Below are positions 14,375 to 38,466 of a stretch of 64,000 nt of DNA, piece after piece. A model generated the notes under the pieces. The model saw only the letters and a list, made by a program, of their open reading frames with translations. It did no database searches and was not told where the DNA came from. Numbering within the stretch: the stretch's first letter is position 1; the number at the start of each line of letters is the position of its first letter. A program made the position numbers and the translations under genes. Source of the stretch: Psammoneis japonica (Eukaryota); assembly GCA_008632985.1 (NCBI GenBank), contig QPGO01000010.1, positions 372,001 through 436,000 of the forward strand, read 5' to 3'.

Positions 14375-14796
14375 TGCCGTGCATGATGCACAAAAATTTA
14401 ACCCCGAGACATTTCCGTTGAGAAAACGTTACGCATAAACCAATACTAATAAAAGGTTACAAGAGGTCATCCAATCTTGTGGAGGAGGTCATAGGTCATT
14501 TTCGAAATTTTGAAAATGATTACCACGAGAAAAACTATGCCCCTCATTTTTTTCCCATTCCCATCGTCCTCCAAACTCGACCATTTCATGCCAATTGGTC
14601 AACACATCCTTTGGCATTTGTGTCGTCGTTATTGAGCAACATATTATTCAAGGAATTGATACCGAATAGTGGTTATCGAAGCGTAACTAACAAGAAACCT
14701 GCAAAGGGGAAGTCGTCGTCTCGTCCTGTGCTGAAGGTGAACAGGAAAAACTCATTGGACTAGTTGAAGGAAACGCTGTTTAGCACTTGTCCTAAG
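14375..14796 (+). promoter_or_regulatory. Upstream region of mucin gene A, co-duplicated with the region upstream of gene B
   Basis: Collinear similarity with 52051-52480 (AACCCCGAGAC…ATTTCCGTTGA, AAGAGGTCATC…AATCTTGTGGA, CGTCCTGTGCTGAAGGTGA, AGGAAAAACTCATTG). Promoter function is inferred from position only. Confidence 0.6.
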
Positions 14797-17700
14797 ATGA
14801 GGCTTTTAAGGGTGAGCTTGTGCCTTGCTTTGCTGCGCACAGGTTTGAGTCAGACTGATGAACCAAGTGACGTGCCTTCAACGATGCCCAGTGTTTTCCC
14901 TTCTGGCATGCCATCGGGAGCGCCAAGTGATGTTCCCTCGACAATGCCGAGCACCATGCCAAGCGCAGTGCCTTCGTCGACTCCGTCGGATGTTCCGAGT
15001 GGCATACCTTCGTCGACTCCATCAATGATGCCTTCCACCTTACCAAGCAGTGCTCCGTCGGGCATGCCGAGCAGCTCTCCTTCAGTGGTCCCCTCGACAA
15101 GCCCATCCGACATTCCCAGTGGCATGCCGAGTAAAACGCCTAGCGCCATGCCTTCAGGAGTACCGAGTGCTGTCCCTTCTGATCTTCCGTCCGTATTTCC
15201 GAGCAGCATGCCAAGCTCCATGCCTTCGTCAAATCCATCCTTGGCGCCATCGAGTCAGCCTTCGGAAGTACCGAGTGCGGCACCCAGTGATGTCCCCTCG
15301 ACTAGTCCATCAGCTCGACCAAGTGATGTGCCCTCTATGCAACCATCTACGGTGCCTTCGACAAGCCCGTCAGCTGTACCCAGTTCGGCACCCAGTGATG
15401 TCCCGTCGGCTAGTCCATCATCCCAGCCAAGTGACAACCCTTCTGCGCAACCGTCTACGGCGCCGTCAAAAAGCCCATCAGCTGTCCCCAGTTCAACACC
15501 CAGTGATATCCCGTCGGCTAGTCCATCGGCTCCGCCCAGTGATGTCCCTTCTGCGCAACCATCTATGGCTCCCTCAACAAGCCCGTCAGCTGTCCCCAGT
15601 TTGGCACCCAGTGACATGCCGTCGACCAGTCCTTCAGCCCAACCAAGTGATGTGCCTTCTGCGCAACCGTCTGCGGTGCCATCGACAAACCCGTCAGAAG
15701 TCCCAAGTTCGGCACCCAGTGACATGCCGTCGACTAGTCCATCAGCCCAACCAAGTGATGTGCCTTCTGCGCAACCGTCTGCGGTGCCATCGACAAGCCC
15801 GTCAGAAGTCCCCAGTTCGGCACCCAGTGAAATCCCGTCGGCAAGTCCATCAGCTCAACCAAGTGATGAACCGTCTGCGCAACCCTCTGCGGTGCCTTCA
15901 ACAAGCCCATCAGCTGTCCCCAGTTCGGCACCCAGTGACGTGCCGTCGACTAGTCCATCGGGTCAACCCAGTGATGTCCCTTCTTCGCAACCATCTACGG
16001 TGCCTTCAGCAAGCCCGTCAGAAGTTCCCAGTTCGGCACCCAGTGTTGTACCGTCGGCCAGTCCATCTACCCAACCAAGTGATACGCCTTCGGCACAACC
16101 GTCTACGGTGCCTTCAGCAAGCCCGTCAGAAGCTCCCAGTTCGGCACCCAGTAATGTGCCGTCGGCCAGTCCATCAACAAAACCAAGTGATACGCCTTCT
16201 GCGCAACCGTCTACGGTGCCGTCAACAAGCCCATCAGCTGTCCCCAGTTCGGCACCCAGTGACATCCCGTCGGCTAGTCCATCGGGTCAACCCAGTGATG
16301 CCCCTTCTGCGCAACCGTCTACGGCGCCTTCAACAAGCCCGTCAGCTGTCCCCAGTTCGGCACCCAGTGACATGCCGTCGACTAGTCCATCAGCCCAACC
16401 AAGTGATGCGCCTTCGGCACAACCGTCTACGGTGCCATCAACAAGCCCGTCAGAAGTTCCCAGTTCGGCACCCAGTGATGTGCCGTCGGCTAGTCCATCA
16501 TCCCAGCCAAGTGACACCCCTTCTGCGCAACCGTCTACGGTGCCGTCAAAAAGCCCATCAGCTGTCCCCAGTTCAGCACCCAGTGATATCCCGTCGACTA
16601 GTCCATCGGCTCAGCCCAGTGATGTCCCTTCTGCGCAACCATCTACGGTGCCTTCAACAAGCCCGTCAGAAGTTCCCAGTTCGGCACCCAGTGATATACC
16701 GTCGGCCAGTCCATCTACCCAACCAAGTGATACGCCTTCGGCACAACCGTCTACGGTGCCTTCAGCAAGCCCGTCAGAAGTTCCCAGTTCGGCACCCAGT
16801 AATGTGCCGTCGGCCAGTCCATCAACAAAACCAAGTGATACGCCTTCTGCGCAACCGTCTACGGTGCCGTCAACAAGCCCATCAGCTGTCCCCAGTTCGG
16901 CACCCAGTGACATCCCGTCGGCTAGTCCATCGGGTCAACCCAGTGATGCCCCTTCTGCGCAACCGTCTACGGCGCCTTCAACAAGCCCGTCAGCTGTCCC
17001 CAGTTCGGCACCCAGTGACATGCCGTCGACTAGTCCATCAGCCCAACCAAGTGATGCGCCTTCGGCACAACCGTCTACGGTGCCTTCAACAAGCCCGTCA
17101 GAAGTTCCCAGTTCGGCACCCAGTGATGTGCCGTCGGCTAGTCCATCATCCCAGCCAAGTGACACCCCTTCTGCGCAACCATCTACGGTGCCGTCAAAAA
17201 GCCCATCAGCTATCCCCAGTTCAGCACCCAGTGATATCCCGTCGGCTAGTCCGTCGGCTCAGCCCAGTGATGTCCCTTCTGCGCAACCGTCTATGGCTCC
17301 TTCAACAAGCCCGTCAGCTGTCCCCAGTTCGGCACCAAGTAACATGCCGTCGACCAGTCCTTCAGCCCAACCAAGTGATGTGCCTTCTGCGCAACCGTCT
17401 GCGGTGCCATCAACAAGCCCGTCAGAAGTCCCCAGTTCGGCACCCAGTGACATGCCGTCGACTAGTCCATCAGCCCAACCAAGTGATGCGCCTTCGGCAC
17501 AACCGTCTACGGTGCCTTCAACAAGCCCTTCAGAATTTCCCAGTTCGGCCCCCAGTGATATACCGTCGGCTAGTCCATCATCCCAGCCAAGTGACACCCC
17601 TTCTGCGCAACCGTCTACGGTGCCATCGACAAGCCCGTCAGAAGTCCCCAGTTCGGCACCCAGTGACATCCCGTCGGCAAGTCCATCAGCTCAACCAAGT

Positions 17701-20700
17701 GATACGCCTTCTGCGCAACCGTCTGCGGTGCCTTCAATAAGCCCATCAGCTGTCCCCAGCTCGGCACCCAGTGATATACCGTCGGCTAGTCCATCCGCTG
17801 AACCCAGTAGCGTGCCATCCTCGACACCTTCAGCCGTACCTTCAACAAGCCCGTCAGCAGTCCCGAGTTCTTCACCAAGTGATATCCCGTCGATTAGCCC
17901 ATCAGCTGAACCCAGTAGCGTGCCTTCCTCGACACCTTCAACGGTGCCTTCAACGAGCCCGTCAGCGGTCCCGACTTCTGCACCAAGTAACGTTCCGTCG
18001 ACCAGTCCATCAGCCGAACCAAGCGACACCCCTTCTGCGCAACCGTCTGCGGTGCCATCAACAAGCCCGTCAGCTGTCCCGAGTTCTTCACCAAGTGGTA
18101 TTCCGTCGAATAGTCCATCGGCTAAACCCAGTAACGTGCCATCCTCAACGCCTTCAACGGTGCCTTCAACAAGGCCATCAGCTCCCCCAAGTTCGGCACC
18201 CAGCGAGTCTCCTTCGACTAGTCCATCCGCACAACCGTCTACGGCGCCTTCAACAGGCCCATCAGCTGTCCCAAGTTCGGAACCCACTAGTATCCCATCA
18301 ACTAGTCCGTCAGCGGAACCGAGTAGCGTGCCATCCTCGACACCCTCAATGATGCCTTCTTCAAGCCCATCCGCTCCCCCAAGTTTGGCACCCAGTGAGG
18401 CTCCTTCGACTAGTCCATCCGCACAACCGTCTACGGCGCCTTCTATAGACCCATCAGCTGTCCCAAGTTCGGCCCCCACTAGTATCCCATCAACTAGTCC
18501 CTCAGCTGAACCGAGTAGCGTGCCATCCTCGACACCCTCAATGGTGCCTTCAATAAACCCATCAGCCGCCCCAAGTTCGGCACCCAGTGAGGCGCCGTCG
18601 AATAGTCCATCAGAGGGACCGAGTAGCCAGTTGTCCTCGACACCTTCGACGGCACCTTCGAGAAGCCCATCAATTGTCCCAAGTTTGCCACCCAGTGAGG
18701 GACCATCGACTAGTCCATCCACTCAACCAAGTGATTGGCCTTCTTTGCGACCGTCTTCGGTGCCTTCAACAAGCCCATCTACGGACCTTAGTTCGGCACC
18801 CAGCACAATCCCGTCGGCTAGTCCGTCAGCTGGACCGAGTAGCATGCCATCCTCGGCACCTTCAGTGGTACCTTCGACAAGCCCATCAGCAGCCCCAAGT
18901 TCGGCTCCCAGCCATGTGATGACGGCGATGCCATCTGATGTACCCAGCACAAAACCAAGCAACGAGCCGACAGACCAGTCAAGCGCTGTTCCGAGTGGAT
19001 CTCCCAGTAACACACCTAGTGCGTCACCATCTGTGTCCAGTGCCGTACCGTCTAAATCCCCTTCAGCGGTTCCAAGCACAACACCGTCTGAAGAAGGCAG
19101 TTCATCGCCATCCGGAACACCGTCCAATGTACCGTCTACATCGGCGCCACCATCTGGCTTACCGAGCGCTGTACCATCATTGGCCCCTTCCTCAAGCAAT
19201 GAACCGTCTGTGACACCGATCTTTGCTCCCTCATCAGCTCCTAGCAATGCACCATCGTCGCAACCATCGGCTGTACCATCAGACGCCCCTTCAGCGGTTC
19301 CAAGCGCAACGCCAACCGGTGTAGACAGCGCAGCGCCATCAACGGCTCCTAGCGATGCACCATCGTCGAAACCGTCGGCTGTGTCTAGTGCGGTACCATC
19401 GGACGCCCCTTCAGTGGTTCCAAGCGTAACGCCAACTGGAGGAGACAGTGCAGCGCCATCACGGTCTCCCAGTAGTACACCATCGTCAAAACCGTCAGCT
19501 GTGCCTATTGTGGTACCGTCAGATGCCCCTTCATCGGTTCCAAGTGTAACGCCAACTGGAGGAGACAGTGCAGCGCCATCAACGGCTCCTAGCGATGCAC
19601 CATCATCGAAAACATCGGCTGTACCATCAGACGCCCCTTCAGCGGCTCCAAGCGTAGCGCCAACCGAAGTAGACAGCGCAGCACCATCAGCGGCTCCTAG
19701 CAATGCACCATCGTCCAAACCATCGGCTTTTCCATCAGACGCCCCTTCTGAGGTTCCAAGCGGAACACCATCCGGAGTAGACAGCGCAGCGCCATCAACG
19801 GCTCCTAGCAATGTACCATCGTCGCAACCATCGGCTGTACCATCAGACGCCCCTTCCGCGGTTCCAAGCGTAACGCCAACTGGAGGAGACAGTGCAGCGC
19901 CATCAAGGTCTCCCAGCAGTGCACCATCGTCGAAACCGTCGGCTGTGCCTAGTGCGGCACCATCAGACGCCCCTTCAGCAGCTCCAAGCGAAACGCCAAC
20001 TGGAGGAGACAGCGCAGCGCCATCAAGGTCTCCCAGCAGTGCACCATCGTCAAAACCATCGGCTGTGTCTAGTACGGTACCATCAGACGCCCCTTCAGCG
20101 GTTCCTAGCGTAACGCCAACTGGAGGAGACAGTGCAGCGCCATCAAGGTCTCCCAGCAGTGCACCATCGTCGAAACCATCGGCTTTGCCTAGTGCGGTAC
20201 CATCAGATGCCCCTTCAACGGTTCCAAGCTATAAACCGTCTGAAGAAGGCAGTTCAGTGCCATCGGGGACACCGTCCAATGTGCCGTCCGCAGTACCAAC
20301 ACTAGCTCCTTCTTTGGCACCAAGCAATTCACCGTCTGCATCGGTGCCACCATCTAGCTTACCGAGCGCAGTGCCGTCCTTGGCTCCTTCATCGAGCAAT
20401 GAACCGTCCATGGCACCGTTTTTCGCCCCCTCATCGGCTCCTAGCAATACACCATCGTCGAAACCGTCGACTGTGCCTAGTGCAGCACCATCAGACGCCC
20501 CTTCAGCGGCTCCAAGCGTATCGCCAACTGGAGGAGACAGTGCAGCGCCATCAACGGCTCCTAGCGACGCACCATCGGCGGTGCCTAATGCGGCGCCATC
20601 AGACGCCCCTTCAGCGACTCCAAGCGTAACGCCAACTGGAGGAGACAGTGCAGCGCCATCAAGGTCTCCTAGCAACTCACCATCGTCGAAACCGTCCGCG

Positions 20701-22638
20701 GTGCATAGTGCGGGACCATCAGATGCCCCTTCAGCGGTTCCAAGCTACAAACCGTCTGAAGAAGACAGTTCAGTGCCATCGGGGACACCGTCCAATGTGC
20801 CGTCCACAGTACCATCATTAGCTCCTTCTTTGGCACCAAGCATTTCACCGTCTACATCGGCACCACCATCTAGCTTACCAAGCACAGTACCATCACTGGC
20901 CCCTTCGTCGAGCAACGAACCTTCCATGGCACCGTTCTTCGCGCCTTCATCGGCTCCTAGCAATGCACCATCGTCAAAACCGTCGGCTGTGCCTAGTGCA
21001 GCACCATCAGACGCCCCTTCAGCGGTCCCAAGCGTGTCGCCAACGGGAGGAGACAGTGCAGCGCCAAGCATCGAGCCGACAGGAAAGCCAAGCGGTATTC
21101 CCACTGGATCTCCTAGTAACACACCTAGCGTGACGCCGTCGTCCTCGCCGTCGGGTGTGTTTGCCGTACCTTCTAGAATCCCAAGCAGTGTACCATCAGT
21201 TTCGCCGTCGGCAACTCCAAGTCGTCTACCAAGTGCAGTACCTTCAGAAAAGCCTTCCTTTGCTCCATCTACGTCGCCCTCCGTTCCCACTTTCGAGCCC
21301 CCACCGCCTGACCCAACGACGTTCATTGAACTGGTTCCTTCCTCAGAAAACCTTACGCCAGCTGTGGTAGAGGAAGGCAAGCCCATGGTGATGAGATACT
21401 TTGTGTCCAACACGGGAGATCGTAGACTTATAAATGTTCGAGTACGAGAGACTTCCAATGCTCCCGTCTTTTATGAGAGCGGCGATTCGAATAATAATAA
21501 CCGACTCGATGTAAATGAGACGTGGACCTACCGTGTCGAAAAGGTGGCTAAACCCGGCGATAACACCGTCAATTTGAGAGCCAGAGGCAGGGCAAGGAGG
21601 ACAAACTGGAGAGCAACGATATCCGAGGATTTCTTTGGTGTCGCGTCGGCTGTTAACATCGACGTTACAGCAAACAATGGTAATGGCTTGACAATCGCAC
21701 CAGGGGAGACAGTTGTGTTTGATTACACTGTCACGAACGGAGGCAACGTTCCCCTCTCCAATGTTCAAGTGTATGATAGTACGCTCAATAAATTTCTGAC
21801 GCTGGCAGGAGGAGACACAAATAATGACGGAAAGCTTGACCTTGACGAGGTTTGGCGATACGCAGAAACCGGTACTGCAGGCACTGGTAGGTATGAAACC
21901 ACCGCTACCGTTACAGCCGAGTACATGGAGAACGGCTTGGATCTTGATGCTGACGATTCGGACAGGACATCGTATAGCAATGTGGCCGTAGGTTGCAGTG
22001 TAAGATTCTGGAAGAAGAACACTGACCAGTGGGACCCGTACAATCCAAACGAGTTGTTCAGGAACGTGGTTGGCATCAAGGCCTATGGAAGGAAATCACT
22101 GCAAAAGGTGTTGACACAAGGAGGCACTACCAGGCGTGGTCTCGGGAGGCAGACAGTGGCTGCTCTTTTGAATGTGGAGAAAGGCAATTACCCATTAGAG
22201 AAGAATGAGATAATTGATGCCTTTGTTGACGCGTTCAGCAGCCGAAACGAGCAAAACTATGCTTCACTGAGAGACACCTTAAAGGCTTTCAACAACAATG
22301 GAGAATGCCCGTTGGATCCCGATCCGCCGCCGCCACGTCCTACTCCTCGGCCTGGTCCCCGTCCGACTCCTCGGCCCGGTCCCCCACCTCGTCCCCGACG
22401 TCCTCCCCGCCCGTCATCCCGACCTCGGGGAAATGGCAATTTGTCCTGGAGGAGACGACTGCAAGAGACCTTGCCGGACGACCGAGTCCTTGAACCCGGT
22501 CGCCCTGGGAGAAGCAACGGTAAAGGAGGCAAAGGTGCAACAAGGGACGCCTTGACGGATGGCACGGGTACTGCTGCACGAGGTGGGCAACGTAAGCTTC
22601 GACGACCTTCACGAAGATTCCGCGACAAAAGGGGATAA
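14797..22638 (+). CDS. Giant secreted Pro/Ser/Thr-rich mucin-like adhesin A (signal peptide, PSxx stalk, two DUF11/DUF7507-like Ig repeats, GCx(3)FWK…CPL domain, Pro/Arg-rich tail)
   Basis: Single uninterrupted ORF from ATG 14797 ([19 protein letters not shown], signal-peptide-like) to TAA 22636-22638. More than 2100 aa of PSxx tetrapeptides; [18 protein letters not shown]…GDTNNDGKLDLDEVWRY motifs. Confidence 0.88.
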   Translation: MRLLRVSLCLALLRTGLSQTDEPSDVPSTMPSVFPSGMPSGAPSDVPSTMPSTMPSAVPSSTPSDVPSGIPSSTPSMMPSTLPSSAPSGMPSSSPSVVPSTSPSDIPSGMPSKTPSAMPSGVPSAVPSDLPSVFPSSMPSSMPSSNPSLAPSSQPSEVPSAAPSDVPSTSPSARPSDVPSMQPSTVPSTSPSAVPSSAPSDVPSASPSSQPSDNPSAQPSTAPSKSPSAVPSSTPSDIPSASPSAPPSDVPSAQPSMAPSTSPSAVPSLAPSDMPSTSPSAQPSDVPSAQPSAVPSTNPSEVPSSAPSDMPSTSPSAQPSDVPSAQPSAVPSTSPSEVPSSAPSEIPSASPSAQPSDEPSAQPSAVPSTSPSAVPSSAPSDVPSTSPSGQPSDVPSSQPSTVPSASPSEVPSSAPSVVPSASPSTQPSDTPSAQPSTVPSASPSEAPSSAPSNVPSASPSTKPSDTPSAQPSTVPSTSPSAVPSSAPSDIPSASPSGQPSDAPSAQPSTAPSTSPSAVPSSAPSDMPSTSPSAQPSDAPSAQPSTVPSTSPSEVPSSAPSDVPSASPSSQPSDTPSAQPSTVPSKSPSAVPSSAPSDIPSTSPSAQPSDVPSAQPSTVPSTSPSEVPSSAPSDIPSASPSTQPSDTPSAQPSTVPSASPSEVPSSAPSNVPSASPSTKPSDTPSAQPSTVPSTSPSAVPSSAPSDIPSASPSGQPSDAPSAQPSTAPSTSPSAVPSSAPSDMPSTSPSAQPSDAPSAQPSTVPSTSPSEVPSSAPSDVPSASPSSQPSDTPSAQPSTVPSKSPSAIPSSAPSDIPSASPSAQPSDVPSAQPSMAPSTSPSAVPSSAPSNMPSTSPSAQPSDVPSAQPSAVPSTSPSEVPSSAPSDMPSTSPSAQPSDAPSAQPSTVPSTSPSEFPSSAPSDIPSASPSSQPSDTPSAQPSTVPSTSPSEVPSSAPSDIPSASPSAQPSDTPSAQPSAVPSISPSAVPSSAPSDIPSASPSAEPSSVPSSTPSAVPSTSPSAVPSSSPSDIPSISPSAEPSSVPSSTPSTVPSTSPSAVPTSAPSNVPSTSPSAEPSDTPSAQPSAVPSTSPSAVPSSSPSGIPSNSPSAKPSNVPSSTPSTVPSTRPSAPPSSAPSESPSTSPSAQPSTAPSTGPSAVPSSEPTSIPSTSPSAEPSSVPSSTPSMMPSSSPSAPPSLAPSEAPSTSPSAQPSTAPSIDPSAVPSSAPTSIPSTSPSAEPSSVPSSTPSMVPSINPSAAPSSAPSEAPSNSPSEGPSSQLSSTPSTAPSRSPSIVPSLPPSEGPSTSPSTQPSDWPSLRPSSVPSTSPSTDLSSAPSTIPSASPSAGPSSMPSSAPSVVPSTSPSAAPSSAPSHVMTAMPSDVPSTKPSNEPTDQSSAVPSGSPSNTPSASPSVSSAVPSKSPSAVPSTTPSEEGSSSPSGTPSNVPSTSAPPSGLPSAVPSLAPSSSNEPSVTPIFAPSSAPSNAPSSQPSAVPSDAPSAVPSATPTGVDSAAPSTAPSDAPSSKPSAVSSAVPSDAPSVVPSVTPTGGDSAAPSRSPSSTPSSKPSAVPIVVPSDAPSSVPSVTPTGGDSAAPSTAPSDAPSSKTSAVPSDAPSAAPSVAPTEVDSAAPSAAPSNAPSSKPSAFPSDAPSEVPSGTPSGVDSAAPSTAPSNVPSSQPSAVPSDAPSAVPSVTPTGGDSAAPSRSPSSAPSSKPSAVPSAAPSDAPSAAPSETPTGGDSAAPSRSPSSAPSSKPSAVSSTVPSDAPSAVPSVTPTGGDSAAPSRSPSSAPSSKPSALPSAVPSDAPSTVPSYKPSEEGSSVPSGTPSNVPSAVPTLAPSLAPSNSPSASVPPSSLPSAVPSLAPSSSNEPSMAPFFAPSSAPSNTPSSKPSTVPSAAPSDAPSAAPSVSPTGGDSAAPSTAPSDAPSAVPNAAPSDAPSATPSVTPTGGDSAAPSRSPSNSPSSKPSAVHSAGPSDAPSAVPSYKPSEEDSSVPSGTPSNVPSTVPSLAPSLAPSISPSTSAPPSSLPSTVPSLAPSSSNEPSMAPFFAPSSAPSNAPSSKPSAVPSAAPSDAPSAVPSVSPTGGDSAAPSIEPTGKPSGIPTGSPSNTPSVTPSSSPSGVFAVPSRIPSSVPSVSPSATPSRLPSAVPSEKPSFAPSTSPSVPTFEPPPPDPTTFIELVPSSENLTPAVVEEGKPMVMRYFVSNTGDRRLINVRVRETSNAPVFYESGDSNNNNRLDVNETWTYRVEKVAKPGDNTVNLRARGRARRTNWRATISEDFFGVASAVNIDVTANNGNGLTIAPGETVVFDYTVTNGGNVPLSNVQVYDSTLNKFLTLAGGDTNNDGKLDLDEVWRYAETGTAGTGRYETTATVTAEYMENGLDLDADDSDRTSYSNVAVGCSVRFWKKNTDQWDPYNPNELFRNVVGIKAYGRKSLQKVLTQGGTTRRGLGRQTVAALLNVEKGNYPLEKNEIIDAFVDAFSSRNEQNYASLRDTLKAFNNNGECPLDPDPPPPRPTPRPGPRPTPRPGPPPRPRRPPRPSSRPRGNGNLSWRRRLQETLPDDRVLEPGRPGRSNGKGGKGATRDALTDGTGTAARGGQRKLRRPSRRFRDKRG
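14863..21290 (+). repeat. Coding minisatellite: 12-bp PSxx unit, 108-bp (36-aa) higher-order unit, 648-bp block duplication
   Basis: GAAGTTCCCAGTTCGGCACCCAGT…CCATCTACCCAACC recurs at 16021 and 16669 (648 = 6x108). The distal part switches to [12 protein letters not shown] units. Confidence 0.9.
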
Positions 22639-23172: not shown

Positions 23173-23612
23173 CTCAACGCATTCTTCCTCTGATGTTGGG
23201 AAAAATCAACGCATCCAACGCTTCTACCGTAAATGTTCATTGATTCATATTTGTATGTTCATTTTCTCATCGTGGCCCAGCAATTCGCAATTGTGGCCCA
23301 GCAATTCGCAATTGTGGCCCACTCTCAACGCATTCTTCTTAATTGTTGGGCAACAATTCAACGCATCCAACGCATCCAACGCTTTTACTGTAACTACATA
23401 TGCTCATTGATTAATGTTTGTATGTTCATTTTCTCATCGTGGCCCAGCAATTCGCAACTGTGGCCCACTCTCAGCGCACTCTTCTCAGTTGTTGGGCAAC
23501 AATTCAACACGCAGCCAACGCAGCCAACGCTTTTGCTGTGGCTGTGCTCATTGGTTGATGTTTGCATGTTCATTTTCTCATTGTGGCCCAGCAATTCTCA
23601 ATCGCGGCCCAG
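23173..23612. repeat. Three-copy ~146-bp tandem repeat straddling the edge of a TpA-depleted domain
   Basis: Copies start at about 23173, 23322 and 23468 (CTCAACGCATTCTTC…GTTGGG…ATGTTCATTTTCTCATCGTGGCCCAGCAATT). Confidence 0.9.
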
Positions 23613-23629
23613 TCTCTGCTCTCAGAGCT

Positions 23630-24365
23630 CTTGTTCCTGTGAACTCCGGACCGCTTGGAAGTTGGGCAGCAGCACAGCGACGGCAGCAGACGCACCGCCC
23701 AATGACAGAAAAACAGAGTTGGAAAAAAGCGGCTTCGTTTGGGATGTTTTCAAAAATCTGTGGGAGAAACAGTGTGAGAATCTGTTGCTGCACATTGCAG
23801 TTCATGGAGACAGCAAGTGTCGCGACTTGTTGTGCTTCGATTCGTTTCTTTTCTTGTCACAATGATCTGAGTGTCTTTTCATTTTTCTGCGCTTTGCTGG
23901 CAGCGTCAGTTCCCAGTGTGGATGAGACAGGTCTTGGGCCATGGGTGTTATGACAGAGGCAGGAGAAGGACACCATGCCTTCTGAGAGACGTCAAAAGCC
24001 AGACGACGTTGGATGTGTTTGGGGTGTTTCCGACTGCCTTTGGAGTGAAAAATTCCAACAGCTGTGTCAGCACCGCGAGACTCATGGAGACAGCAAGTGT
24101 GGCCATTTGTTGCACTTTGGCTGCTCTGATTTGGTTGTCTAATGTTCTGCTCTGTGCACCTCGTTTTTCTGGCATTGCAGCGTTGGTTCCCACCAGAACG
24201 GTTCTTGGGTCATGGGCAAATGCACAAAGGCAAAACAAGGACGGCATGTCAGCGGAACAATGTCAAAAGCTGGAGGACATCAGGTTTGTTTGGGACATTC
24301 TTGACTGCTCTTGGAACGAGAACTGCCAATGGCTGCGCCAGTGCCGCCAGGCTCATGGATGCAGC
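23630..24365 (+). pseudogene. Helicase-associated (HA, PF03457-like) repeat protein pseudogene
   Basis: Three repeats of VP…LGxWxxxQR…LExxGFVWD…W…L…HGD, with same-phase introns at 23813-23903, 24093-24180 and from 24364. In-frame TGA (probably from CGA) and a frameshift are present. Confidence 0.85.
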
Positions 24366-27174
24366 AAGTGCGCCATTTGCATGCTTGGGCTCTAAATGCG
24401 TCAATGCATGTTGTTCTCTAAAAAAGAGCCGATTGTCAACTGCAAAGACCAAAGTGAAAACACAAGCAAAGGCGCAAACAACGTTCAACTCTGTGCTGCA
24501 CATGCCGTTGAGAAGTGTGAAACGTGAAGAGCACCTTTCCGCCAAGGCGTCCTGCAATGCCGGCATGCTTCACTTCCAAAGAAGGTTTTTTCAGAACAAC
24601 ATTTTCTGACTTGGTCTTCATGCTTCTGAGAACCCAACCTTGCGTTTTCTCTTGTTTTGAATGCATCTTGGAACTCATCAAGACAATTGAGGACCAATGT
24701 CCCACCGACTGTGTTGCCATTGTTGTTGAGCAGTGCTGCAATGACCTCAGCCGTGCACAACAGGTTTTCGCCATGGTTGCCACTGCCAAATCAACATCAC
24801 CAACCAGAACAATCCTTTCGCAAGCAATGCTGGGATGGCAATTGGGGTGCAATTGTGTGGCGGGGAAGTTTTTGAAGACAACACAACTTTCAAAACATCC
24901 CCTGAGCTTCTTGCCAAGTGCCATCCAAAACGACAAAGAGGGGGGCACCAGCCTCAACAGCAGTCTCATCACTGTTGTGAAGGGTCGTGTTGCCAGCACC
25001 AGTCCAAACCAATGCGGGATTCATTCCTTGTCATTCAATTTGTTTCAAATTGTTTTCAATTGTCTTTGCATCATTTCGTCCGGACCACATCCACTTGTCA
25101 ACAGTGACATGCTCTGACAGCAATGACTCCTGGTGTTCATTGCAACACCCTTCCGCCACTGCAAAGAACAATTGCGCTGTCGAAGTTGGTCATTTCACTT
25201 CGTTGGAATGCTGCAGGCAGCAGAACCACTTGCATGGCGACAGTCAGCTGTTTTGTTGCATCTTTGACAAAAAGCTGCACACCCTGATGCTTGTGTTTCA
25301 TGCATTTTGCCACAAGCTCACACAACCTCCACATCCATTCAGGAACACAGTCCTTGTCATTCATGATGGAAAAGCCAGATTTTTCACAGAGAGGGTGCAG
25401 CCTGTTCTCGGCAAAACAAAAGCAAGATTTTTCAACGCTTTGCCGCATTTTACAGTCATGTGAAGCTTCTTGCATCAAAAACAGTGCTGCACCTTGACAT
25501 TGGTGATTCCTTGACACACAGAGAGACCGCAGAAATGTAAAATGAGATCTGGCTGGGCAGAGTCAGACGGCCACCATGATGGAACATTCGTCATCCATGA
25601 GACTGCACACTTCATCTCTTGCCTTTGGAGCTGGAGGGGCCACCCTCTTTTGATTCATAAAGTGCTGTCGATGAAACGAATCCAACAACGTGCGTTCTTT
25701 CTCATTCACCACATGCTTGAAGTGATGCCTGCTGTGGGTTGTTCTGCCAATGTGAAATGCAGAGGAGACTTGACAAAACAGGCCAACAACAGCTGCAACT
25801 TTGTGTTGTTGCTTGCAGCACCACATCCTGACATTTCCAATGGCTCCAATGAGCTTTCATGGCCAGCAACCGGGGACAACAATTCTGGCTGTTGTGGGTG
25901 TGACAGGGACGGACGTGATGAAAAGAGAGCAGCAGCAATGCAGAAGAGAGAGTTTTGCTGCAGAACGGAAAGATGACCTGTCATTTTTGAGGTGTGTTCA
26001 GTGATGTCGCATCACTCAGCCTCTCATCACAGTGTCCCTCACTCTGCTGCTCTGATGGGGCAAGAGGATGAAAACAGCGTCGGCACATCCAACAGGCCCA
26101 CGGCAACATGCATCGCATGAGACGTGTTCCAGCCGCACGTGAACCAAATCGTGCACAAAAACGACATTTGCGCGATTTTTGCGCGGTCCCTAACTTACGA
26201 TCGAACTTTCACCACCAAAAGTATAGATTTGTGCAAATGTAAATGTTTTGCAACACTAACAAGACTCGTGTGAGTGTTGCAATGTCATTGTCATTGTGCC
26301 ATCTATGTTTTTCATTGCGTTGAAAGATTCGCAACACAACGGATGATTTTCGGCGAAAATGTTGCCGTTATTTGGATGTTGCCTAAATGTGTTTTTCTAC
26401 GATGCTACTTGGTGGGTTTTCTACCTGCAAAAAAATCTCAGCATAAATCTACTGACGTGCAATCAGCATCGAGTCTACTGAGGAAGTTCATGATGCACAT
26501 CCCATGAGGATTTGAACACCCCTCAAAAAACCACTTAAATGTTCATACTCTGCAAGCCTGTGAAAGTCAATCCGTCTGAGCATCTTTGTCAAAATGCCAC
26601 ACATGCTAAAATGTGCACAAATTACATTCAAAATCCGATTGTCGTTTTGTGCGTCACCTGGGACTGGAACATGTCATGGCATGACGCAAACCGCACACTG
26701 CCAATCAGAGACCACTTTGTGCGTCTCGAACAACAAAACAGAAATAGAACATTTGTGCTGGCATGTCAATGTTAGATTCAAATTTCATCGAGCAGTGGAT
26801 GCGGAGCGCGGGAACCACAGAACATTGGATCGACATCCCGTGCACAGGTTCCCCTCCGAGGGGCCCTGTTTGAGGGACCCTGTTCGAGGGAACCTGTCAG
26901 CTGGGTGGTGTTTGAAGTGCAATTAAAATGCCACCAATGAGGACAAGTGACTCTGTTCGAGCCCAAAAAATGCGCTTCTTGCACAGCAGCAGCAGCCCAG
27001 CGTTCTGCACCAATCGTCATGTGCGCTGCCACACCACATGGCACCAACACTGAAGTGGTCAGCTTGCTTGGCAGATGGGGGTCATGTGGTGTGTTTTGAT
27101 GTGTGAATCTCATGTGGCACATCAGGTTGAAATGTTTTGGGAAATTGATTTGCACAACTCACTCCAGCGTGTTG

Positions 27175-27445
27175 TTTGTTTTGGCAGAAAGTTGTTGGAA
27201 GGTTCGGCTGAGGTGATGTTTTGGCCCAGCACTGCTTGATGGCATCCAATTTCCTTGCATGTTGTCTCAGACTGTTCTGTGGGTCCAACCTTGTTGTTGA
27301 CTTGTCATGTGCAACCTGGTTTGAACAAAGCACACTTGGATGCATCATTTGTTTTGGCAGGAAGTTTTTGGAAGGTCGCCAAGGTGATGTCTTGCCTGGT
27401 CAAACAACGGGGTCCAATGTCCTCCTTGCATGTTGTCTCAGGTGC
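27175..27445. repeat. Diverged tandem duplication, period ~173 bp
   Basis: GTTTTTGGCAGAAAGTTGTTGGAAGGT (~27177) vs GTTTTGGCAGGAAGTTTTTGGAAGGT (27351); CCTTGCATGTTGTCTCAG at ~27253 and ~27424. Confidence 0.65.
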
Positions 27446-30400
27446 TGCTCTGCAAAGGGGCTCTCACTGCAAGTTTGGCACCATTGTTGACTCACCATGG
27501 TTGGCATGCTGCGGATCTTTGGCCCCCACCGCAGACTTTGATGAGAATGGAACCTTCAACCTGCACTGCATCACACCGCACTTTGGCCTTGCAACATTTT
27601 TTGGGCATGCCGGCATTTTTGAATCCACAGGCTCAGAAGAGCCTGTGTTGAACAAGCCATGTGCAGGGGTTGTGAGTCCCGAAAAACAGGGTTTGGGCCG
27701 ATTTCTGGTGCAGGGCTCACGCAGAAAATTCGCGCAGAATGTCTTGTTCGTCGTGCTTTTCCCGTGCTTTGCGAAAAATGAGCCACAACCTCAAGGAATC
27801 GATTTCAGTCATAACGGTTGACACTTTGCGTGCTCACTTTTTGATGACAAACACGACGATGTCCACCGTTCGGCAAAACTCCATCATTGGAAAATGTTGG
27901 CCGTGGTGGGACCGCAGTGAAGTGTTGATCGAATTTCTGAAAATGGAATTTTGAAGTGTTCACGCACAGAATCGTGTTGCTTGTGTAAAAGTCATCATGT
28001 AAAGTGTCAATGGTTTCAGGGGAAAACGATTCCTTGAGGCGTCGGTGGAGCGAGCAGAGAAGCACGGTAGAAGCACGAGAAAAAAATCGGCCCAAACCCT
28101 GTGTAATTTTTATAATTTTTTCTACGTAAAATTTCTACAAGCTTACTGCTTTTCGTACCGACCCCAGTAGCATTCTACGTTACATACCAGAATTTTTAAT
28201 TATTTATTTAGTCATTAATATATCATTACGAATTGACAACCACCGATTTTTGGCACGCGACACCACACGATGACACGTTCCGTCGAACGAGTTCGGGCCC
28301 ACCCGGAATAGTTACCAAGCCATTTGGGTACAGCTATATCAATGAGGTACTTGCGGATCATATATGTCTCATTGGCTTGGTAATTCTTCGTGGTTGACAA
28401 ATAAACGACGGCAAAGGATTCACGTGTTGTTTTGTCGTGCTGTGGCGTCAAGAGCCAGGTTAGTCGAGTTAATCCCAGTAGAAAACCTACGTAGGCCTAC
28501 TCTGAGCCACAAGCGCGCGTAATAAGCTTGTACGTGATTTTTGTACCAGTGCACATGGCTTATCGAAATCTGCACGCACAGCACACACGACACGATGCTG
28601 ACTACCGGTACCCTCGCTCCATCCATGCATGCATCGTGGCGCCGGCGGCCGGCGATCGCCTTGCCGTGGCGGGTGGCGGTCAAGTTCTTACCGTATGGTG
28701 CCAAGCCTGGCCAAGCAGTCCATTCCAGACACTACATTAGACAACTCTCTCTCTCTCTCTCTAGAGAGAGAGTAGATGGGAGTGAGACGACACTGCACAT
28801 GGCGTCGGGCCCAGGCACACGTTATGACGATTTCGTCCGCGGCGTATCGGTGGCAGCTGTTTTGGCTTTTGAAGTATCGAGAACGCAATCCTAACTCCAC
28901 CCAAACAACAACAAGAAAAAGTCGATTCAAATCGGAATCCCTGCATGAGCATCATGCTGGTAAGACCTTGGCTGGAAGTCTTACTGAATCCATATTCGTG
29001 ACGTGCGAGTCGCTTCAACGATAGAAGTGCATACCGCCGCGCACTTCCACTAAAACACGCAGCAACACGTTCAACGTGTTATTGTTCACGTGCGCCACCA
29101 TGGCCTTTTTGTGTCATCATCCATTATTGTTCCTGGAAAGATGCTCAAGTAGCAATTGCAAATAGGATTGCATTCAGATTTGATGGCGGTGCCGCCAAGA
29201 GTGTGTGCCAGACGCAGGGTATTTTGGGCGTTTCTGTTGCTATGATAATATGAAGTGTGTCTCCGAGATGTACCTTACACCATGATTGAGATTGGTCTGC
29301 ATGATTTATTGAAAAAGACAACCGAATCCAAACAACGTCAAGACGAAAATAATAACTCATCATGGATGCCACAATTGAAACCGTGGCCAATGCGAAACAA
29401 CCAATGGCATTTGTACGGTATCCTTAGCATGTCCAGCATACAGTGGTGGCATTCCTCGGGACGCCAAGTCATGTCAACCACATGCTGCTGGGCTTGTTCC
29501 TGTGGTTTGCTATTGTGTGTTTGGCAGGTCTTGCGTTGGCTTGGCTGTGGGTTCCAACTTGGGAAATATATACCGTACTGTTGAATGGTGTATAGGCTTG
29601 GCTGGTGGTGTTGCAGTTGTCGAAGATGCAGAGGGCGGTGGAGCAGGGAGAGTCGTTGGTGAATTTGTTTGTTGCTTCGTGGGAGATGGTGTGGGAGCAT
29701 GTGGCAGGGATAGACATGTTGTCGTAGGATGAGTTTTTGGGAGACCGTTGGCCGTGAAGAAAGAAAGCAGTCTATGACTAGTCCGCTGATTATTCGTTGG
29801 GTATGGCGTGCTAGTTGAAGTATCACGCCAAAATGAAAAACAAACATGAAATGAAATTCACTGCATTTACAGACGCGAAAGTGCTATCCGAGTTAATAGA
29901 ACATAGATATATCCTAAAAGAGGTGTTAGCTGAGCCCTCGAGAGATGCTTAGTACCATACTTTTTCTTTACACAGAGCCAAGAAAGCGGAGTCAATGGCT
30001 TCTTGTCATCTTGCAGTACGGCGTGACATTATGATATGAGTGCGGAAAGATCCTTCATTTTTCATCGAGCAGGACGAACGCCCCAAAGCGTTGCAAGTGC
30101 AGGTGTCCGTTCAACACATACACGGCAGTGTCGCGCTCTCTCTCTCTAGCCGCAGTGCATTGCGACGAACAAGATAAGATGACGTTGCCGGTCATTGACA
30201 GATGGCCATTGATGGTCGGTGCACGGTCATCCTTTACGACGTAAAGCAACATTTGAGCCTGTGAAAGCAAAGCGCCCCCTGTGCGCACGTGTGACACAAA
30301 CTTTTGTGCCTCTGCTCTGCACGAATGCCGGCAGCAGCTGGCATGATGCACAGGGTGGAGAGAAAATGGCAAACCATTGTTGATGGTCACACAGCACAAA

Positions 30401-31311
30401 AGCCCAGCATCAGCATTGGAAGATGATCCAGCAACCCAGCATGGGTGGAGACAGCATGAGATGCCACAATGGTGCAAAAGCACGCTGCAAAGTGACATGT
30501 CAACAGAATGTTTGCACAGGCAGTGTTTCAGAGCAAGCTGCAATTTGCAGCCAAGCTGTTGCTCTGAAATTGCAGGTGCTTGATGCTTTTGAAGTTGGCG
30601 CCAAATTTGAGCACTGCCAAAGCTGTGCTGGCACGTCAATGTGCTCACCACCCTGCTGCTCTGCTGTCCTGCCCTCTTTGGTGCAAGCACTGTTGTTTTT
30701 GCCAGCTTGCAGCTTTGCCCCCCTCTGTGAGCACAATCTCTTGCCTGGCAAGGGTGCTCCAGTGGTGCTGCAGAGAGCAGCAGTGCTTGCCTCTGGAGCA
30801 CCCACCCCTGCTGACTGCATGCTCAGTCTGCTGCCAAGGTGCTGCCACCAGCAAGACAGCACCAGCACTGGGCTCTGAGGTGCACCACCATTCAAAGCTG
30901 CTGCTTTGGCCACACAGCTGCACTCAAATCATTGTCATCAGGTTGAAAACAAGTCAAATGAAGCCATGGCACTCTCGCTCTCATGGGGTGGCTCAGCAAG
31001 CTGTTTCACAAGGCTCTGCTGCAACCCACTTTTTTGCAGCATCCTTGGTCACAACAAGGTCCTGCACCACTTTCCAGTTGTTGCGGCTTCAACAAATCAT
31101 TGCAGTGGAAGCTTTGCAAAAATGGCCAACACATGGCCTGACTTCTTCTTCTTCAGCAGTGCTGCCAGCCAGTCACATGGAAAATTGACCACAAAGACAA
31201 ATTGATCGCCAATTGATTGCCGCCGCTTGCGAGACACTAAATTGGCTGATGCACCATGCATCTCATGACCTGTTGTGGCGCCTTGACACCATGTCAGAAA
31301 TGTGTTGTTAA

Positions 31312-38400: not shown

Positions 38401-38466
38401 TGGGGACATGGCAGTCCCATTTCCTGAGGACAAGGAAGTCCTGGGGTGTTGCCTTGGTCTGAGCCA
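35438..38466 (+). mobile_element. Truncated degenerate Copia (CoDi-like) element: gag, protease, integrase
   Basis: gag (KDWPKTME…IPLACVV…EMIAHAPH…DGRMAH…WNFE…KVHHLLDSIK), protease EIDSHADRC, integrase (SRRGNTCAQVF, DGAKE, QTEPHAPWSNAAEGNVRELK, LWDDCLELEA). Breaks off after VLGCCLG; no RT follows. Confidence 0.88.

What the first reader, a model, noticed from the sequence alone, without database searches (positions are those of the whole stretch)
23173..23612. Tandem repeat crossing the domain boundary gives a before/after record of the mutation
Copy 2 (outside) vs copy 3 (inside): CTTAATT->CTCAGTT, TTTTACTG->TTTTGCTG, TGTAACTA->TGTGGCTG, GATTAATG->GGTTGATG, TTGTATG->TTGCATG, CATCGTGG->CATTGTGG. 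Essentially every TA in copy 2 is converted in copy 3, and copy 1 keeps TA at matching sites, which polarises the change. The boundary is therefore sharp to within about 150 bp (nucleosome scale), and targeting depends on position rather than sequence.
Basis: seen in the sequence. Interest (0 to 1): 0.85.

Follow-up and report, generated by a model that had tools for sequence, protein, structure and literature searches.

The report
TA-erasing hypermutation border in diatom
A three-unit DNA repeat in a diatom chromosome straddles the razor-sharp edge of a block in which almost every TA (and many CG) has been mutated to TG or CA, a kind of targeted hypermutation that kills genes and that I could not find described anywhere.

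Summary
The array at 23173-23619 has three ~148-bp units with 4, 7 and 0 TA. All 6 alignable TA of unit 2 are TG or CA in unit 3. On unit 3's own branch, 10 of 13 changes are A:T>G:C.

The array lies on the left edge of one of three blocks (about 7.6-14.0, 23.45-28.0 and 30.2-51.7 kb) where TA is 15-fold and CG 4-fold depleted, TG/CA is enriched and G+C is unchanged.

Three units alone cannot root the change, but two outgroups do:
- A dead GNAT+DTW gene inside the block (24659-25760, minus strand) has His/Cys where relatives have Tyr, and stop/Cys/Gln/His where they have Arg.
- A contig from the same sample carries the unconverted, open version.

TA loss is a step at all 8 block edges (here within 23423-23474), whereas CG loss is graded.

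Best reading: enzyme-driven, region-limited hypermutation of silenced DNA, TpA>TpG/CpA with RTAY sites about 99.8% lost, plus methyl-CpG decay. It resembles fungal RIP in logic but has different chemistry and direction. The mechanism and the cause of the sharp edge are inferred. I found no published description.

The parts
23173..23323 (.). Repeat unit 1 (outside the block). It has 4 TA and carries an internal 21-bp x2.4 sub-repeat.
23324..23470 (.). Repeat unit 2 (outside the block; the 'before' state), with 7 TA and 6 CG.
23471..23619 (.). Repeat unit 3 (inside the block; the 'after' state), with 0 TA and 6 CG. Of 13 unit-specific changes, 10 are A:T>G:C.
23423..23474 (.). Interval that must hold the left edge of TA conversion. 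It runs from after the last TA (23421-2) to the first unit-3-specific change (23474). No informative site lies in between.
23450..26120 (.). Converted block 2a. TA rho is 0.03-0.05. CG is only mildly depleted for the first ~1.1 kb and more strongly after that.
23715..24380 (+). Degenerate ~280-bp tandem repeat holding a weak helicase-associated (HA) domain relic (ORF 23871-24392, E=6e-5, below the Pfam cut-off).
24659..25760 (-). Dead GNAT + DTW-domain gene. It has one frameshift near 25216 and in-frame TGA stops. Tyr and Arg codons are converted.
26121..26675 (.). MITE-like element with 22-nt terminal inverted repeats and very high read depth (summed k-mer depth of that bin 22142, against about 65 for single-copy contigs). 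Its TA and CG content is normal. It is an unconverted insertion inside the block.
26800..27990 (.). Converted block 2b.
7580..13990 (.). Converted block 1. It contains 241-bp direct repeats (8369-8609 and 13688-13926) that are 86.7% identical, or 95.9% when only purine/pyrimidine class is compared.
30245..51700 (.). Converted block 3 (21 kb), with TA rho 0.00-0.15 and CG rho 0.05-0.47. It gives only weak Copia-type hints (gag_pre-integrs at 7e-4 and SH3_retrovirus at 1e-3, both below cut-off).
14764..22638 (+). Giant PT-repeat/DUF11 gene with normal composition. Its 3' flank runs into repeat units 1-2. A paralog lies at 52080-63997.

Best explanation
The window is diatom nuclear DNA. It holds blocks of silenced, non-functional DNA that have undergone near-saturating hypermutation made only of transitions and specific to two dinucleotides.

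At TpA steps, one of the two A:T pairs became G:C (TA>TG or CA). Conversion is almost complete at purine-T-A-pyrimidine sites. At CpG steps, one G:C pair became A:T (CG>TG or CA). G+C therefore stays constant, tyrosine codons vanish, and CGA codons turn into TGA stops.

The three-unit repeat at 23173-23619 was already in place when the block to its right was hit. Units 1-2 lay outside the target and unit 3 lay inside, so unit 2 against unit 3 is a genuine before/after pair. The edge of targeting lies within about 50 bp.

I read this as two coupled processes:
- A fast, enzyme-driven one that removes TpA. Most likely it is deamination of adenine to inosine in DNA, with a strong preference for T on the 5' side. 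It acts on a sharply delimited stretch.
- Slower decay of methylated CpG in the same silenced stretch, weaker towards the edges.

Shown here: the pattern, its direction, its context rule, the step-like edges, and the death of a host-type gene.

Inferred: that an enzyme does it, that the mutated base is A rather than T, that the target is defined by chromatin state or position, and the link to methylation.
For: Organism. The coatomer beta' gene at 4059-7029 is 70-84% identical to diatom proteins.

Composition. Inside the blocks (31,224 bp), TA frequency is 0.0035 and CG is 0.0116. CA and TG are each 0.1135. G+C is 0.479. In non-coding DNA outside (5,656 bp), the corresponding values are 0.0529, 0.0497, 0.0787 each, and 0.451 (profiles).

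Repeat.

Direction, test 1. tblastn of the closest relative P0121 onto 24659-25760 (minus strand) gives two segments of 46% and 51% identity. Its 9 aligned Tyr read H3, C3, E1, stop1, F1 and never Y. Among its aligned Arg, 11 stay R and 16 read stop5, C5, Q4, H2 (alignment).

Direction, test 2. One contig of run X2 (1097 bp, depth 30) covers 24629-25667 with 126 differences. Over 24655-24855 the window has TA 0 / CG 4 / TG 24 / CA 26, and the contig has TA 7 / CG 13 / TG 15 / CA 18. Translated, the contig version is open and restores the family's Y and R residues, where the window has H, C and two stops.

Direction, test 3. The two 241-bp in-block repeats show 3 TG-versus-CA double mismatches, as expected from independent conversion.

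Transitions only. Purine/pyrimidine recoding raises repeat identity from 76% to 95% and from 87% to 96%. Among the places where X1 contigs differ from the window, 1538 carry transitions and 423 carry transversions.

Context rule. Counting both strands, RTAY sites number 2 against about 1,071 expected from outside density. Survival rises through CTAT 0.005, CTAC 0.035, TTAT 0.07, TTAC 0.10, CTAG 0.16 and TTAG 0.26 to TTAA 0.35.

Edges. Mean TA per 200 bp falls from 10.6 to 0.4 in adjacent bins. CG falls gradually: 10.2, 6.6, 5.4, 3.4 (5 of 8 edges averaged; all 8 listed; positions).

Not an assembly artefact. X1 contigs of 0.7-2.75 kb (depth 57-69) match in-block sequence with 0-2 differences. 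One contig (29307-31784) spans a block edge.

A rather than T. The 7 extra changes in unit 3 away from TA have, read as A>G, the 5' neighbours A, A, A, A, G, C, C. This is weak evidence.
Against: - No enzyme, base modification, chromatin or methylation data are available. No genome is held for this window, so candidate deaminase or oxygenase genes could not be sought.
- A duplex-symmetric outcome cannot tell A>G from T>C.
- No local strand clustering of TG against CA was seen beyond the outside control (dispersion 1.11-2.74 inside against 1.35-2.45 outside). Processive single-strand deaminases often leave such clustering.
- A step-like edge narrower than a nucleosome is not what spreading chromatin marks usually give.
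- A MITE and a 2.2-kb island inside or between blocks are unconverted, so position alone does not decide.
- The 7-kb PT-gene duplicates are unconverted.
- Contiguity of unit 2 with unit 3 rests on the assembly. The only bridging contig shown (X2, 791 bp, depth 7.6) has one unit fewer and 22 differences whose letters I could not see.
- The runs come from one sample, possibly the one the window was assembled from.
- Of the 80 metagenome loci around diatom coatomer genes, I scanned the 30 that are 5 kb or longer. None has a 1-kb window with TA rho below 0.25, so the phenomenon may be lineage-restricted or confined to repeat-rich DNA.
Confidence: 0.55

Rival explanations
1. Same region-limited hypermutation, but the mutated base is thymine. 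A TET/JBP-type oxygenase converts T at TpA in silenced DNA to 5-hydroxymethyl- or 5-formyl-uracil, which mispairs with G and yields T>C (TA>CA, read as TG on the other strand). The same enzyme family also acts on 5-methylcytosine, which would tie the TA and CG processes together.
For: The outcome is duplex-symmetric, so T>C fits as well as A>G. T and 5-methylcytosine are both 5-methylpyrimidines, and the two targets, TpA and methyl-CpG, are the two self-complementary pyrimidine-purine steps with a methyl group on both strands. This is an inference.

In dinoflagellates a TET/JBP homolog makes 5hmU, which is enriched on repeats and represses them. Earlier work cited there found preferential replacement of T in TA and TC (passages of PMC11572971 read).
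Against: Read as T>C, the 7 non-TA changes of unit 3 have no TC preference: the 3' neighbours are T, T, T, T, C, G, G. That 5hmU or 5fU is mutagenic enough for 99.8% conversion is recalled chemistry, not tested here. No TET/JBP gene or 5hmU is known to me in diatoms, and none could be sought.
Confidence: 0.2
2. The mutation process is real, but the sharp edge is not an edge of targeting. It is a historical crossover, a gene-conversion end, or an assembly join inside the array, between a converted haplotype or paralog and an unconverted one.
For: Converted and unconverted versions of the same DNA coexist in one sample. Other arrangements of this repeat family exist in the reads: there are joints 23396>23561, 23616>23340 and 23616>23548 with inserted letters that contain TA (table 5c). 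A contig with one unit fewer bridges 22975-23452 to 23593-23812. Read depth over 23335-24001 is about 5 times that of single-copy contigs.
Against: All 8 edges in the window are equally step-like, and one of them is spanned by a single 2.5-kb contig with 2 differences. Eight independent crossovers would be needed. The longest exact stretches shared by units 2 and 3 are about 20 bp or less, too short for a 31-mer graph to misjoin.
Confidence: 0.13
3. A repeat-induced process like fungal RIP. Duplicated DNA is recognised by homology and mutated, and block edges are the ends of homology between the duplicates.
For: The converted GNAT+DTW gene has at least one intact relative and one further related copy in the same sample. 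2270 X1 contigs align to 22-42 kb at 80-100% identity, so block DNA is low-copy repeated. Diatoms carry DNMT4, a relative of the fungal RIP factor RID with unknown function (passages of PMC9998398).
Against: Units 1-2 are homologous to unit 3 yet untouched. The 7-kb PT-gene duplicates are untouched. The very high-copy MITE is untouched. An intact partner survives, whereas RIP mutates both copies according to the RIPCAL abstract (PMC2621366, listing). Parts of block 3 have single-copy depth.
Confidence: 0.08
4. RNA-level A-to-I (ADAR-like) and C-to-U editing fixed by reverse transcription. On this view the blocks are edited retrocopies.
For: There is an A>G bias with T, then A, favoured on the 5' side. 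There are weak Copia-type hints in block 3.
Against: Block 2a continues an unconverted genomic tandem repeat and holds relics on both strands, HA on plus and GNAT+DTW on minus. TA loss without AA loss (AA 0.0802 inside against 0.0824 outside) is far more specific than ADAR preferences as I recall them.
Confidence: 0.02
5. Sequencing or assembly artefact: modified bases in heterochromatin are miscalled as TG/CA.
For: Miscalls on opposite strands at a symmetric modified site would mimic TA/CG>TG/CA.
Against: K-mer contigs of depth 57-69 reproduce block sequence with 0-2 differences per 0.7-2.75 kb. The converted and intact versions are both present as distinct contigs in X1. The dead gene also has a frameshift. 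The library type of the runs is not on record, and they may be the data the assembly was built from.
Confidence: 0.02

Closest known systems
Repeat-induced point mutation (RIP) of Neurospora and other filamentous ascomycetes
   Same: Near-saturating hypermutation made only of transitions and specific to a dinucleotide context. It acts on non-functional or duplicated DNA with sharp borders, creates stop codons and kills genes. It is later associated with cytosine methylation. Diatoms have DNMT4, a relative of RID (PMC9998398, passages).
   Different: RIP is C:G>T:A, mostly CpA>TpA. It creates TpA and lowers G+C (RIPCAL abstract PMC2621366, plus recall). Here TpA is destroyed by A:T>G:C, CpG is the cytosine context, and G+C is unchanged. 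Homologous units and large duplicates escape, and an intact partner survives. RIP is described as fungal-specific.
CpG decay by deamination of 5-methylcytosine in methylated DNA (vertebrates; methylated transposons of diatoms)
   Same: CG>TG/CA confined to silenced DNA, graded towards the edges. CG methylation of diatom transposons is documented (PMC9998398 abstract and passages).
   Different: It cannot remove TpA. Here TA loss is stronger (15-fold against 4-fold) and step-like. At this edge it occurs without CG loss: unit 3 keeps 6 CG.
A-to-I hyperediting by ADAR, and tRNA adenosine deaminases (TadA/ADAT) and their engineered DNA base editors
   Same: An A>G outcome with U/T preferred 5' of the edited A. 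The TadA/ADAT natural target is A34 after the invariant U33. This is recalled and was not tested.
   Different: Those enzymes act on RNA. No natural eukaryotic enzyme deaminating adenine in chromosomal DNA is known to me. The RTAY context rule does not match their reported 3'-side preferences as I recall them.
5-hydroxymethyluracil on dinoflagellate transposons (TET/JBP thymidine hydroxylase)
   Same: An enzymatic mark placed on T in silenced repeats, historically reported to prefer TA and TC dinucleotides (PMC11572971, passages).
   Different: It is an epigenetic mark, not reported there as a cause of T>C hypermutation or of TA-free DNA. It has not been shown in diatoms.
APOBEC3-type editing of retroelements
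   Same: Context-specific deaminase hypermutation that inactivates mobile DNA (PMC4866542, abstract seen in the listing).
   Different: It is C>U on single-stranded cDNA, giving strand-biased G>A. It needs a retro-intermediate and does not affect TpA.

Membership tests
Fungal RIP | Mutations are C:G>T:A transitions | tested here: not met
   The dominant class is A:T>G:C: 10 of 13 on unit 3's branch, and TA frequency falls 0.0529>0.0035. C:G>T:A occurs only as CG>TG/CA.
Fungal RIP | CpA>TpA preference, so TpA rises and G+C falls | tested here: not met
   TpA rho is 0.05 inside against 0.70 outside. G+C is 0.479 against 0.451.
Fungal RIP | Triggered by sequence duplication; all copies are mutated | tested here: not met
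   Units 1-2, the 7-kb PT-gene paralogs and the high-copy MITE are unconverted. An intact GNAT+DTW copy persists.
Fungal RIP | Depends on a RID/DNMT4-type protein and occurs before meiosis | not testable with these tools
   No genome is held. There is only literature context.
Methylation-driven CpG decay | CG>TG/CA in a delimited region | tested here: met
   CG rho is 0.20 inside against 0.98 outside non-coding DNA. 11 of the 13 CG of the intact copy read TG or CA in the window over 24655-24855. Among Arg aligned to P0121, 11 stay R and 16 read stop/C/Q/H.
Methylation-driven CpG decay | 5-methylcytosine present on the region | not testable with these tools
   No methylation data. Raw signal or EM-seq would be needed.
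Methylation-driven CpG decay | Accounts for the whole signature | tested here: not met
   It cannot explain the TA loss, which is stronger and is decoupled at the edge.
ADAR-type hyperediting of retro-copies | The edited unit is an RNA-derived insertion | tested here: not met
   The block is continuous with unconverted units of the same tandem repeat and carries gene relics on both strands.
ADAR-type hyperediting of retro-copies | 5' neighbour preference U about equal to A, then C, then G, with broad A loss | tested here: inconclusive
   TA is lost 15-fold but AA is unchanged (0.0802 against 0.0824). The 7 non-TA changes have 5' neighbours A, A, A, A, G, C, C.
TET/JBP thymine modification | 5hmU or a derivative present at TpA of silenced DNA; oxygenase gene present | not testable with these tools
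   No genome and no chemistry. There is only a literature lead.

The most novel reading that the evidence does not exclude
Diatoms (at least this lineage) possess a natural genome-defence or gene-silencing system that edits chromosomal DNA at A:T pairs. An adenine deaminase, or a thymine-modifying enzyme, erases TpA steps (RTAY first) from silenced DNA, with borders sharp to tens of base pairs, and works alongside CpG methylation. That would be the first A:T>G:C counterpart of RIP, the first RIP-like system outside fungi, and a possible source of a natural double-stranded-DNA adenine editor.
Probability: 0.4. Interest if true: 0.95.

Novelty: new variant of a known kind. Interest (0 to 1): 0.85.

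Why it matters
If this is an enzymatic process, it is a new way for a eukaryote to disable DNA permanently. It removes all tyrosine codons, turns CGA into stops, strips TATA-like and AATAAA-like signals, and still leaves base composition unchanged.

It would extend RIP-type defence beyond fungi, to an ecologically dominant algal group, and with the opposite chemistry. It would also point to a natural activity that converts A:T to G:C in double-stranded chromosomal DNA. Such activity is so far known to me only from engineered base editors.

The repeat at 23173-23619 is valuable because it is an internally controlled before/after pair, and it fixes the edge of targeting to about 50 bp. That makes the question of what defines the target directly testable with methylation, nucleosome and histone-mark maps.

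Practically, such blocks yield long spurious ORFs because there are few stop codons. They also hide homology from BLAST (76% identity against 95% after purine/pyrimidine recoding). Both will mislead annotation of diatom genomes.

Tried and rejected
- **Reverse polarity** (TG/CA ancestral, RIP-like CA>TA outside the block): rejected by the protein outgroup and the intact copy.
- **Whole genome:** none is held, so the paralogous flank beyond 64000, candidate enzymes and a genome-wide block map could not be examined.
- **Hidden homology by purine/pyrimidine recoding**: only the repeats already known were found. Homology between the two PT-gene flanks stops at 14399/52080, which is 400-480 bp inside normal DNA, so those block edges are not duplication breakpoints.
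- **Pfam on 134 stop-free ORFs of the blocks**: only GNAT passed its cut-off. The HA, gag_pre-integrs, SH3_retrovirus and RIH_assoc hits were below cut-off.
- **Word-based homolog searches** with the GNAT ORF and the SH3-like ORF found nothing.
- **Rfam and tRNA scans:** nothing.
- **Strand clustering of TG against CA, and periodicity of surviving CG/TA:** nothing beyond the control, apart from at most a weak 120-240-bp bump for CG.
- **Shared motif at block edges:** none seen by eye.
- **Related diatom loci from metagenomes:** of 80 loci, the 30 that are 5 kb or longer were scanned, and none has low-TA windows. These are gene-dense contigs, so this is weak evidence.
- **RNA evidence:** no RNA holder was listed. 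Run X2 has no cover over 26003-28003 and 30005-42000, and within 23.3-26 kb the pieces listed for it are variant copies. I draw no conclusion on expression from this.
- **Literature:**, plus a term search in a 2025 diatom transposon preprint, returned nothing on TA>TG/CA hypermutation. This covers only the held library. Supplements were not opened.
- **Earlier scan notes**: nothing relevant.
Full report
**What the window is.** The window is eukaryotic nuclear DNA from a diatom. The gene at 4059-7029 (minus strand) is coatomer beta' (Pfam). Its best matches, at 70-84% identity, are diatom proteins where a source gives a name. No whole genome is held for this window.

**The composition anomaly behind the finding.**
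- A 1-kb scan of dinucleotide odds ratios and 200-bp counts show three blocks: about 7.6-14.0 kb, 23.45-28.0 kb (interrupted at 26.1-26.8 kb) and 30.2-51.7 kb.
- In these blocks TA is almost absent (rho 0.00-0.15), CG is low (0.05-0.55) and TG and CA are nearly doubled (1.5-2.3).
- Pooled over 31,224 bp of block DNA against 5,656 bp of non-coding DNA outside: TA frequency is 0.0035 against 0.0529, and CG is 0.0116 against 0.0497. CA and TG are each 0.1135 against 0.0787, and G+C is 0.479 against 0.451.
- The loss of TA plus CG (0.088) roughly equals the gain of TG plus CA (0.070).

**The observation.**
- Tandem Repeats Finder and self-BLAST find the array. It has three units: 23173-23323, 23324-23470 and 23471-23619 (alignment).
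- TA counts per unit are 4, 7 and 0. CG counts are 7, 6 and 6.
- Units 2 and 3 differ by 19 substitutions: A>G 8, T>C 5, C>T 2, T>G 2, G>T 1, C>G 1.
- All 6 alignable TA of unit 2 read TG (4) or CA (2) in unit 3. The seventh lies in an indel.
- Positions inside a TA changed in 6 of 12 cases against 13 of 130 elsewhere (Fisher p=0.0015).
- Over the 129 columns where all three units have a letter, the 13 changes private to unit 3 are A>G 6, T>C 4, T>G 1, C>T 1 and G>T 1.
- The 10 changes private to unit 1 and the 4 private to unit 2 show no such bias.
- Unit 1 shares TA at only 3 of the 6 sites. Some A:T>G:C changes in unit 3 are not at TA.

**Direction of change.** Three units give an unrooted tree, so unit 1 cannot polarise the change by itself. 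Three independent tests do.

1. *Protein outgroup.*
   - Inside the same block, 1-2 kb to the right, lies a dead gene at 24659-25760 (minus strand).
   - Pfam finds a GNAT domain above its cut-off.
   - A full HMMER search finds a family of proteins mostly 376-465 residues long with GNAT and DTW-type motifs.
   - tblastn of the closest relative, P0121, gives two segments in different frames (46% and 51% identity), so there is one frameshift.
   - Its 9 aligned tyrosines read His 3, Cys 3, Glu 1, stop 1, Phe 1 and never Tyr.
   - Among its aligned arginines, 11 stay Arg and 16 read stop 5, Cys 5, Gln 4, His 2.
   - These are exactly the products of TAY>CAY/TGY and CGN>TGN/CAN.
2. *Unconverted copy in the reads.*
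   - Public runs from one sample hold this DNA.
   - One 1097-bp contig of run X2 covers 24629-25667 with 126 differences.
   - Applying the 30 listed differences over 24655-24855, the window has TA 0, CG 4, TG 24, CA 26. The contig has TA 7, CG 13, TG 15, CA 18.
   - Translated in the gene's frame, the contig version is open and shows the family's Tyr and Arg residues. The window shows His, Cys and two stops at those places.
   - An unconverted, apparently intact copy therefore exists in the same sample. Whether it is an allele or a paralog is open. X1 depths of about 67, 38 and 51 for three versions do not settle this.
3. *Independent conversion of in-block repeats.*
   - Two 241-bp direct repeats that both lie inside block 1 differ partly by TG-versus-CA double mismatches (3 cases). 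This is expected if each copy converted an ancestral TA or CG independently.

**Nature of the process.**
- *It consists of transitions.* Recoding to purine/pyrimidine raises identity of the array from 76% to 95%, and of the 241-bp repeats from 87% to 96%. Among the places where X1 contigs differ from 22-42 kb, 1538 carry transitions and 423 carry transversions.
- *It is strongly context-dependent*.
  - Counting both strands, ATAT, GTAC and ATAC/GTAT together occur 2 times against about 1,071 expected at the outside density.
  - Survival rises through CTAT/ATAG 0.005 and CTAC/GTAG 0.035.
  - It continues through TTAT/ATAA 0.07, TTAC/GTAA 0.10, CTAG 0.16 and TTAG/CTAA 0.26.
  - The highest survival is TTAA at 0.35.
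- *It is far faster than background.*
  - In the 188-bp stretch compared with the intact copy (24662-24849), 7 of 7 TA and 11 of 13 CG are converted, against 4 transversions.
  - In unit 3, 6 of 6 TA are converted, against 4 transversions in about 140 sites.
- *TA loss and CG loss are separable.* Averaged over 5 of the 8 edges (the three MITE-adjacent or short ones are listed but not averaged), TA per 200 bp drops from 10.6 to 0.4 between adjacent bins. CG declines gradually: 10.2, 6.6, 5.4, 3.4. Unit 3 has lost all TA but keeps 6 CG.

I read this as a fast, discrete TA-specific process on a sharply delimited stretch, followed or accompanied by ordinary decay of methylated CpG that is weaker at the margins.

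**The edge.**
- The last TA is at 23421 and the next at 23949.
- The first unit-3-specific change is at 23474 and the first converted TA at 23486.
- The edge therefore lies in 23423-23474. The last 48 bp of unit 2 hold no informative site.
- All other edges are equally abrupt. For example, TA occurs about every 14 bp up to 7570 and then not until 7969, and there is no TA from 49811 to 51369 or from 51369 to 51718, after which TA is dense.
- I saw no shared motif at the edges.

**What is and is not hit.**
- Genes with 400-850 bp of flank are spared: coatomer, the NACHT gene and both giant PT-repeat genes.
- A 555-bp MITE-like element (26121-26675, 22-nt inverted ends) sits inside block 2 with normal TA and CG. 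The summed depth of its bin is 22142, against about 65 for single-copy contigs. It presumably inserted after the event.
- A 2.2-kb island at 28.0-30.2 kb is also normal and has no clear ORF.
- The 7-kb PT-gene paralogs (77-91% identical) are unconverted.
- Duplication is therefore not sufficient and position is not sufficient. Time of arrival, activity state, or both also matter.

**Is it real DNA?** X1 contigs of 657-2751 bp with k-mer depth 57-69 match block sequence with 0-2 differences. One contig (29307-31784) runs across a block edge. The converted and unconverted versions are distinct contigs in the same run. This argues against a base-calling artefact. The runs may, however, be the assembly's own data, and their library type is not on record.

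Contiguity of units 2 and 3 themselves is not shown by any contig displayed to me. The only bridging contig (X2, 791 bp, depth 7.6) joins 22975-23452 to 23593-23812 with one unit fewer.

**Mechanism (inferred).** TA>TG/CA requires A>G on one strand or the other, or equivalently T>C. I see two candidates.
- *Deamination of adenine to inosine in DNA* by an enzyme preferring a 5' T. The 7 extra changes of unit 3, read as A>G, have 5' neighbours A, A, A, A, G, C, C. That grades sensibly from T, but the sample is small.
- *Oxidation of thymine at TpA* by a TET/JBP-type enzyme to a mispairing base. In dinoflagellates such an enzyme marks and represses repeats, and older work cited there found 5hmU preferentially in TA and TC (PMC11572971, passages).

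The two targets, TpA and methyl-CpG, are the two self-complementary pyrimidine-purine steps that carry a 5-methyl group on both strands. One reader module could therefore direct both processes. This is speculation. I saw no strand clustering of products beyond the control.

**Comparison with known systems.**
- *Fungal RIP* is the closest in logic. Its defining features fail here: direction, CpA>TpA preference, AT enrichment, and mutation of all duplicated copies.
- *Diatom DNMT4* is related to the RIP factor RID and has no known function (PMC9998398, passages). This is a lead only.
- *CpG decay* explains the CG part only.
- *ADAR or APOBEC editing of retro-copies* does not fit a block that continues a genomic tandem repeat and holds relics on both strands.

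Seven literature searches and one in-paper term search found no description of TA-erasing hypermutation. This covers only the held library, and no supplements were opened. Of 80 metagenome loci around diatom coatomer genes, I scanned the 30 that are 5 kb or longer, and none shows low-TA windows. The phenomenon may be lineage-specific or confined to repeat-rich DNA that metagenomes do not assemble.

**Verdict.**
- The polarity claim is correct, and is now supported by true outgroups.
- The positional-targeting inference is the best reading but is not proven.
- The repeat is one edge of a larger phenomenon that appears to be undescribed.
- I rate it a new variant of RIP-like hypermutation. There is a substantial chance (about 0.4) that it is a categorically new DNA A:T>G:C editing defence.

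Noticed in passing
14764-22638 (+) and 52448-60322 (+), continuing to 63999: Two paralogous giant genes (each with an ORF of 2624 aa) are built of 108/120-bp coding repeats. Pfam finds PT repeats (E=8e-110) and a DUF11/DUF7507 domain. G+C is 0.57-0.59 with strong negative GC skew. The paralogs are 77-91% identical over 14399-21805 against 52080-63997.
   Followed up: partly
26121-26675: A MITE-like element with 22-nt inverted ends lies in a bin with summed k-mer depth 22142, against about 65 for single-copy contigs. Seventeen contigs break at 26121. It is unconverted although it lies inside a converted block.
   Followed up: partly
28000-30200: An island of normal composition lies between two converted blocks and has no convincing ORF. 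Run X2 has contigs identical to the window over 28644-29936. Its nature (non-coding gene, promoter or young insertion) is unknown.
   Followed up: no
8369-8609 and 13688-13926: Two 241-bp direct repeats lie 5.3 kb apart inside block 1, in an LTR-like arrangement. No reverse transcriptase or integrase domain was detectable in the ORFs between them. The converted block extends about 770 bp beyond the left repeat.
   Followed up: partly
42105-42479: A 187-bp tandem duplication is 96% identical and both copies are TA-poor, so it arose after conversion. One copy has since gained a new TA from CA, and two differences are CG against TG/CA.
   Followed up: partly
blocks 7.6-14.0, 23.45-28.0, 30.2-51.7 kb: Because TAA and TAG are nearly absent, the blocks are full of long spurious ORFs on both strands (up to 502 codons stop to stop). 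They contain almost no tyrosine codons. This is a trap for gene finders.
   Followed up: yes
30300-51550: Distances between surviving CG show a dip at 40-100 bp and a broad excess at 120-240 bp. This may hint at nucleosome-linked methylation, but it is weak.
   Followed up: partly
1873-3572 (+): A NACHT/NB-ARC-type STAND NTPase gene (weak Pfam hits, E=3e-6 and 2e-5) lies next to the coatomer gene.
   Followed up: no
23715-24380 (+): A degenerate ~280-bp tandem repeat lies just inside the block and carries a weak helicase-associated (HA) domain hit (E=6e-5). It is probably another dead host-type gene next to the array.
   Followed up: no
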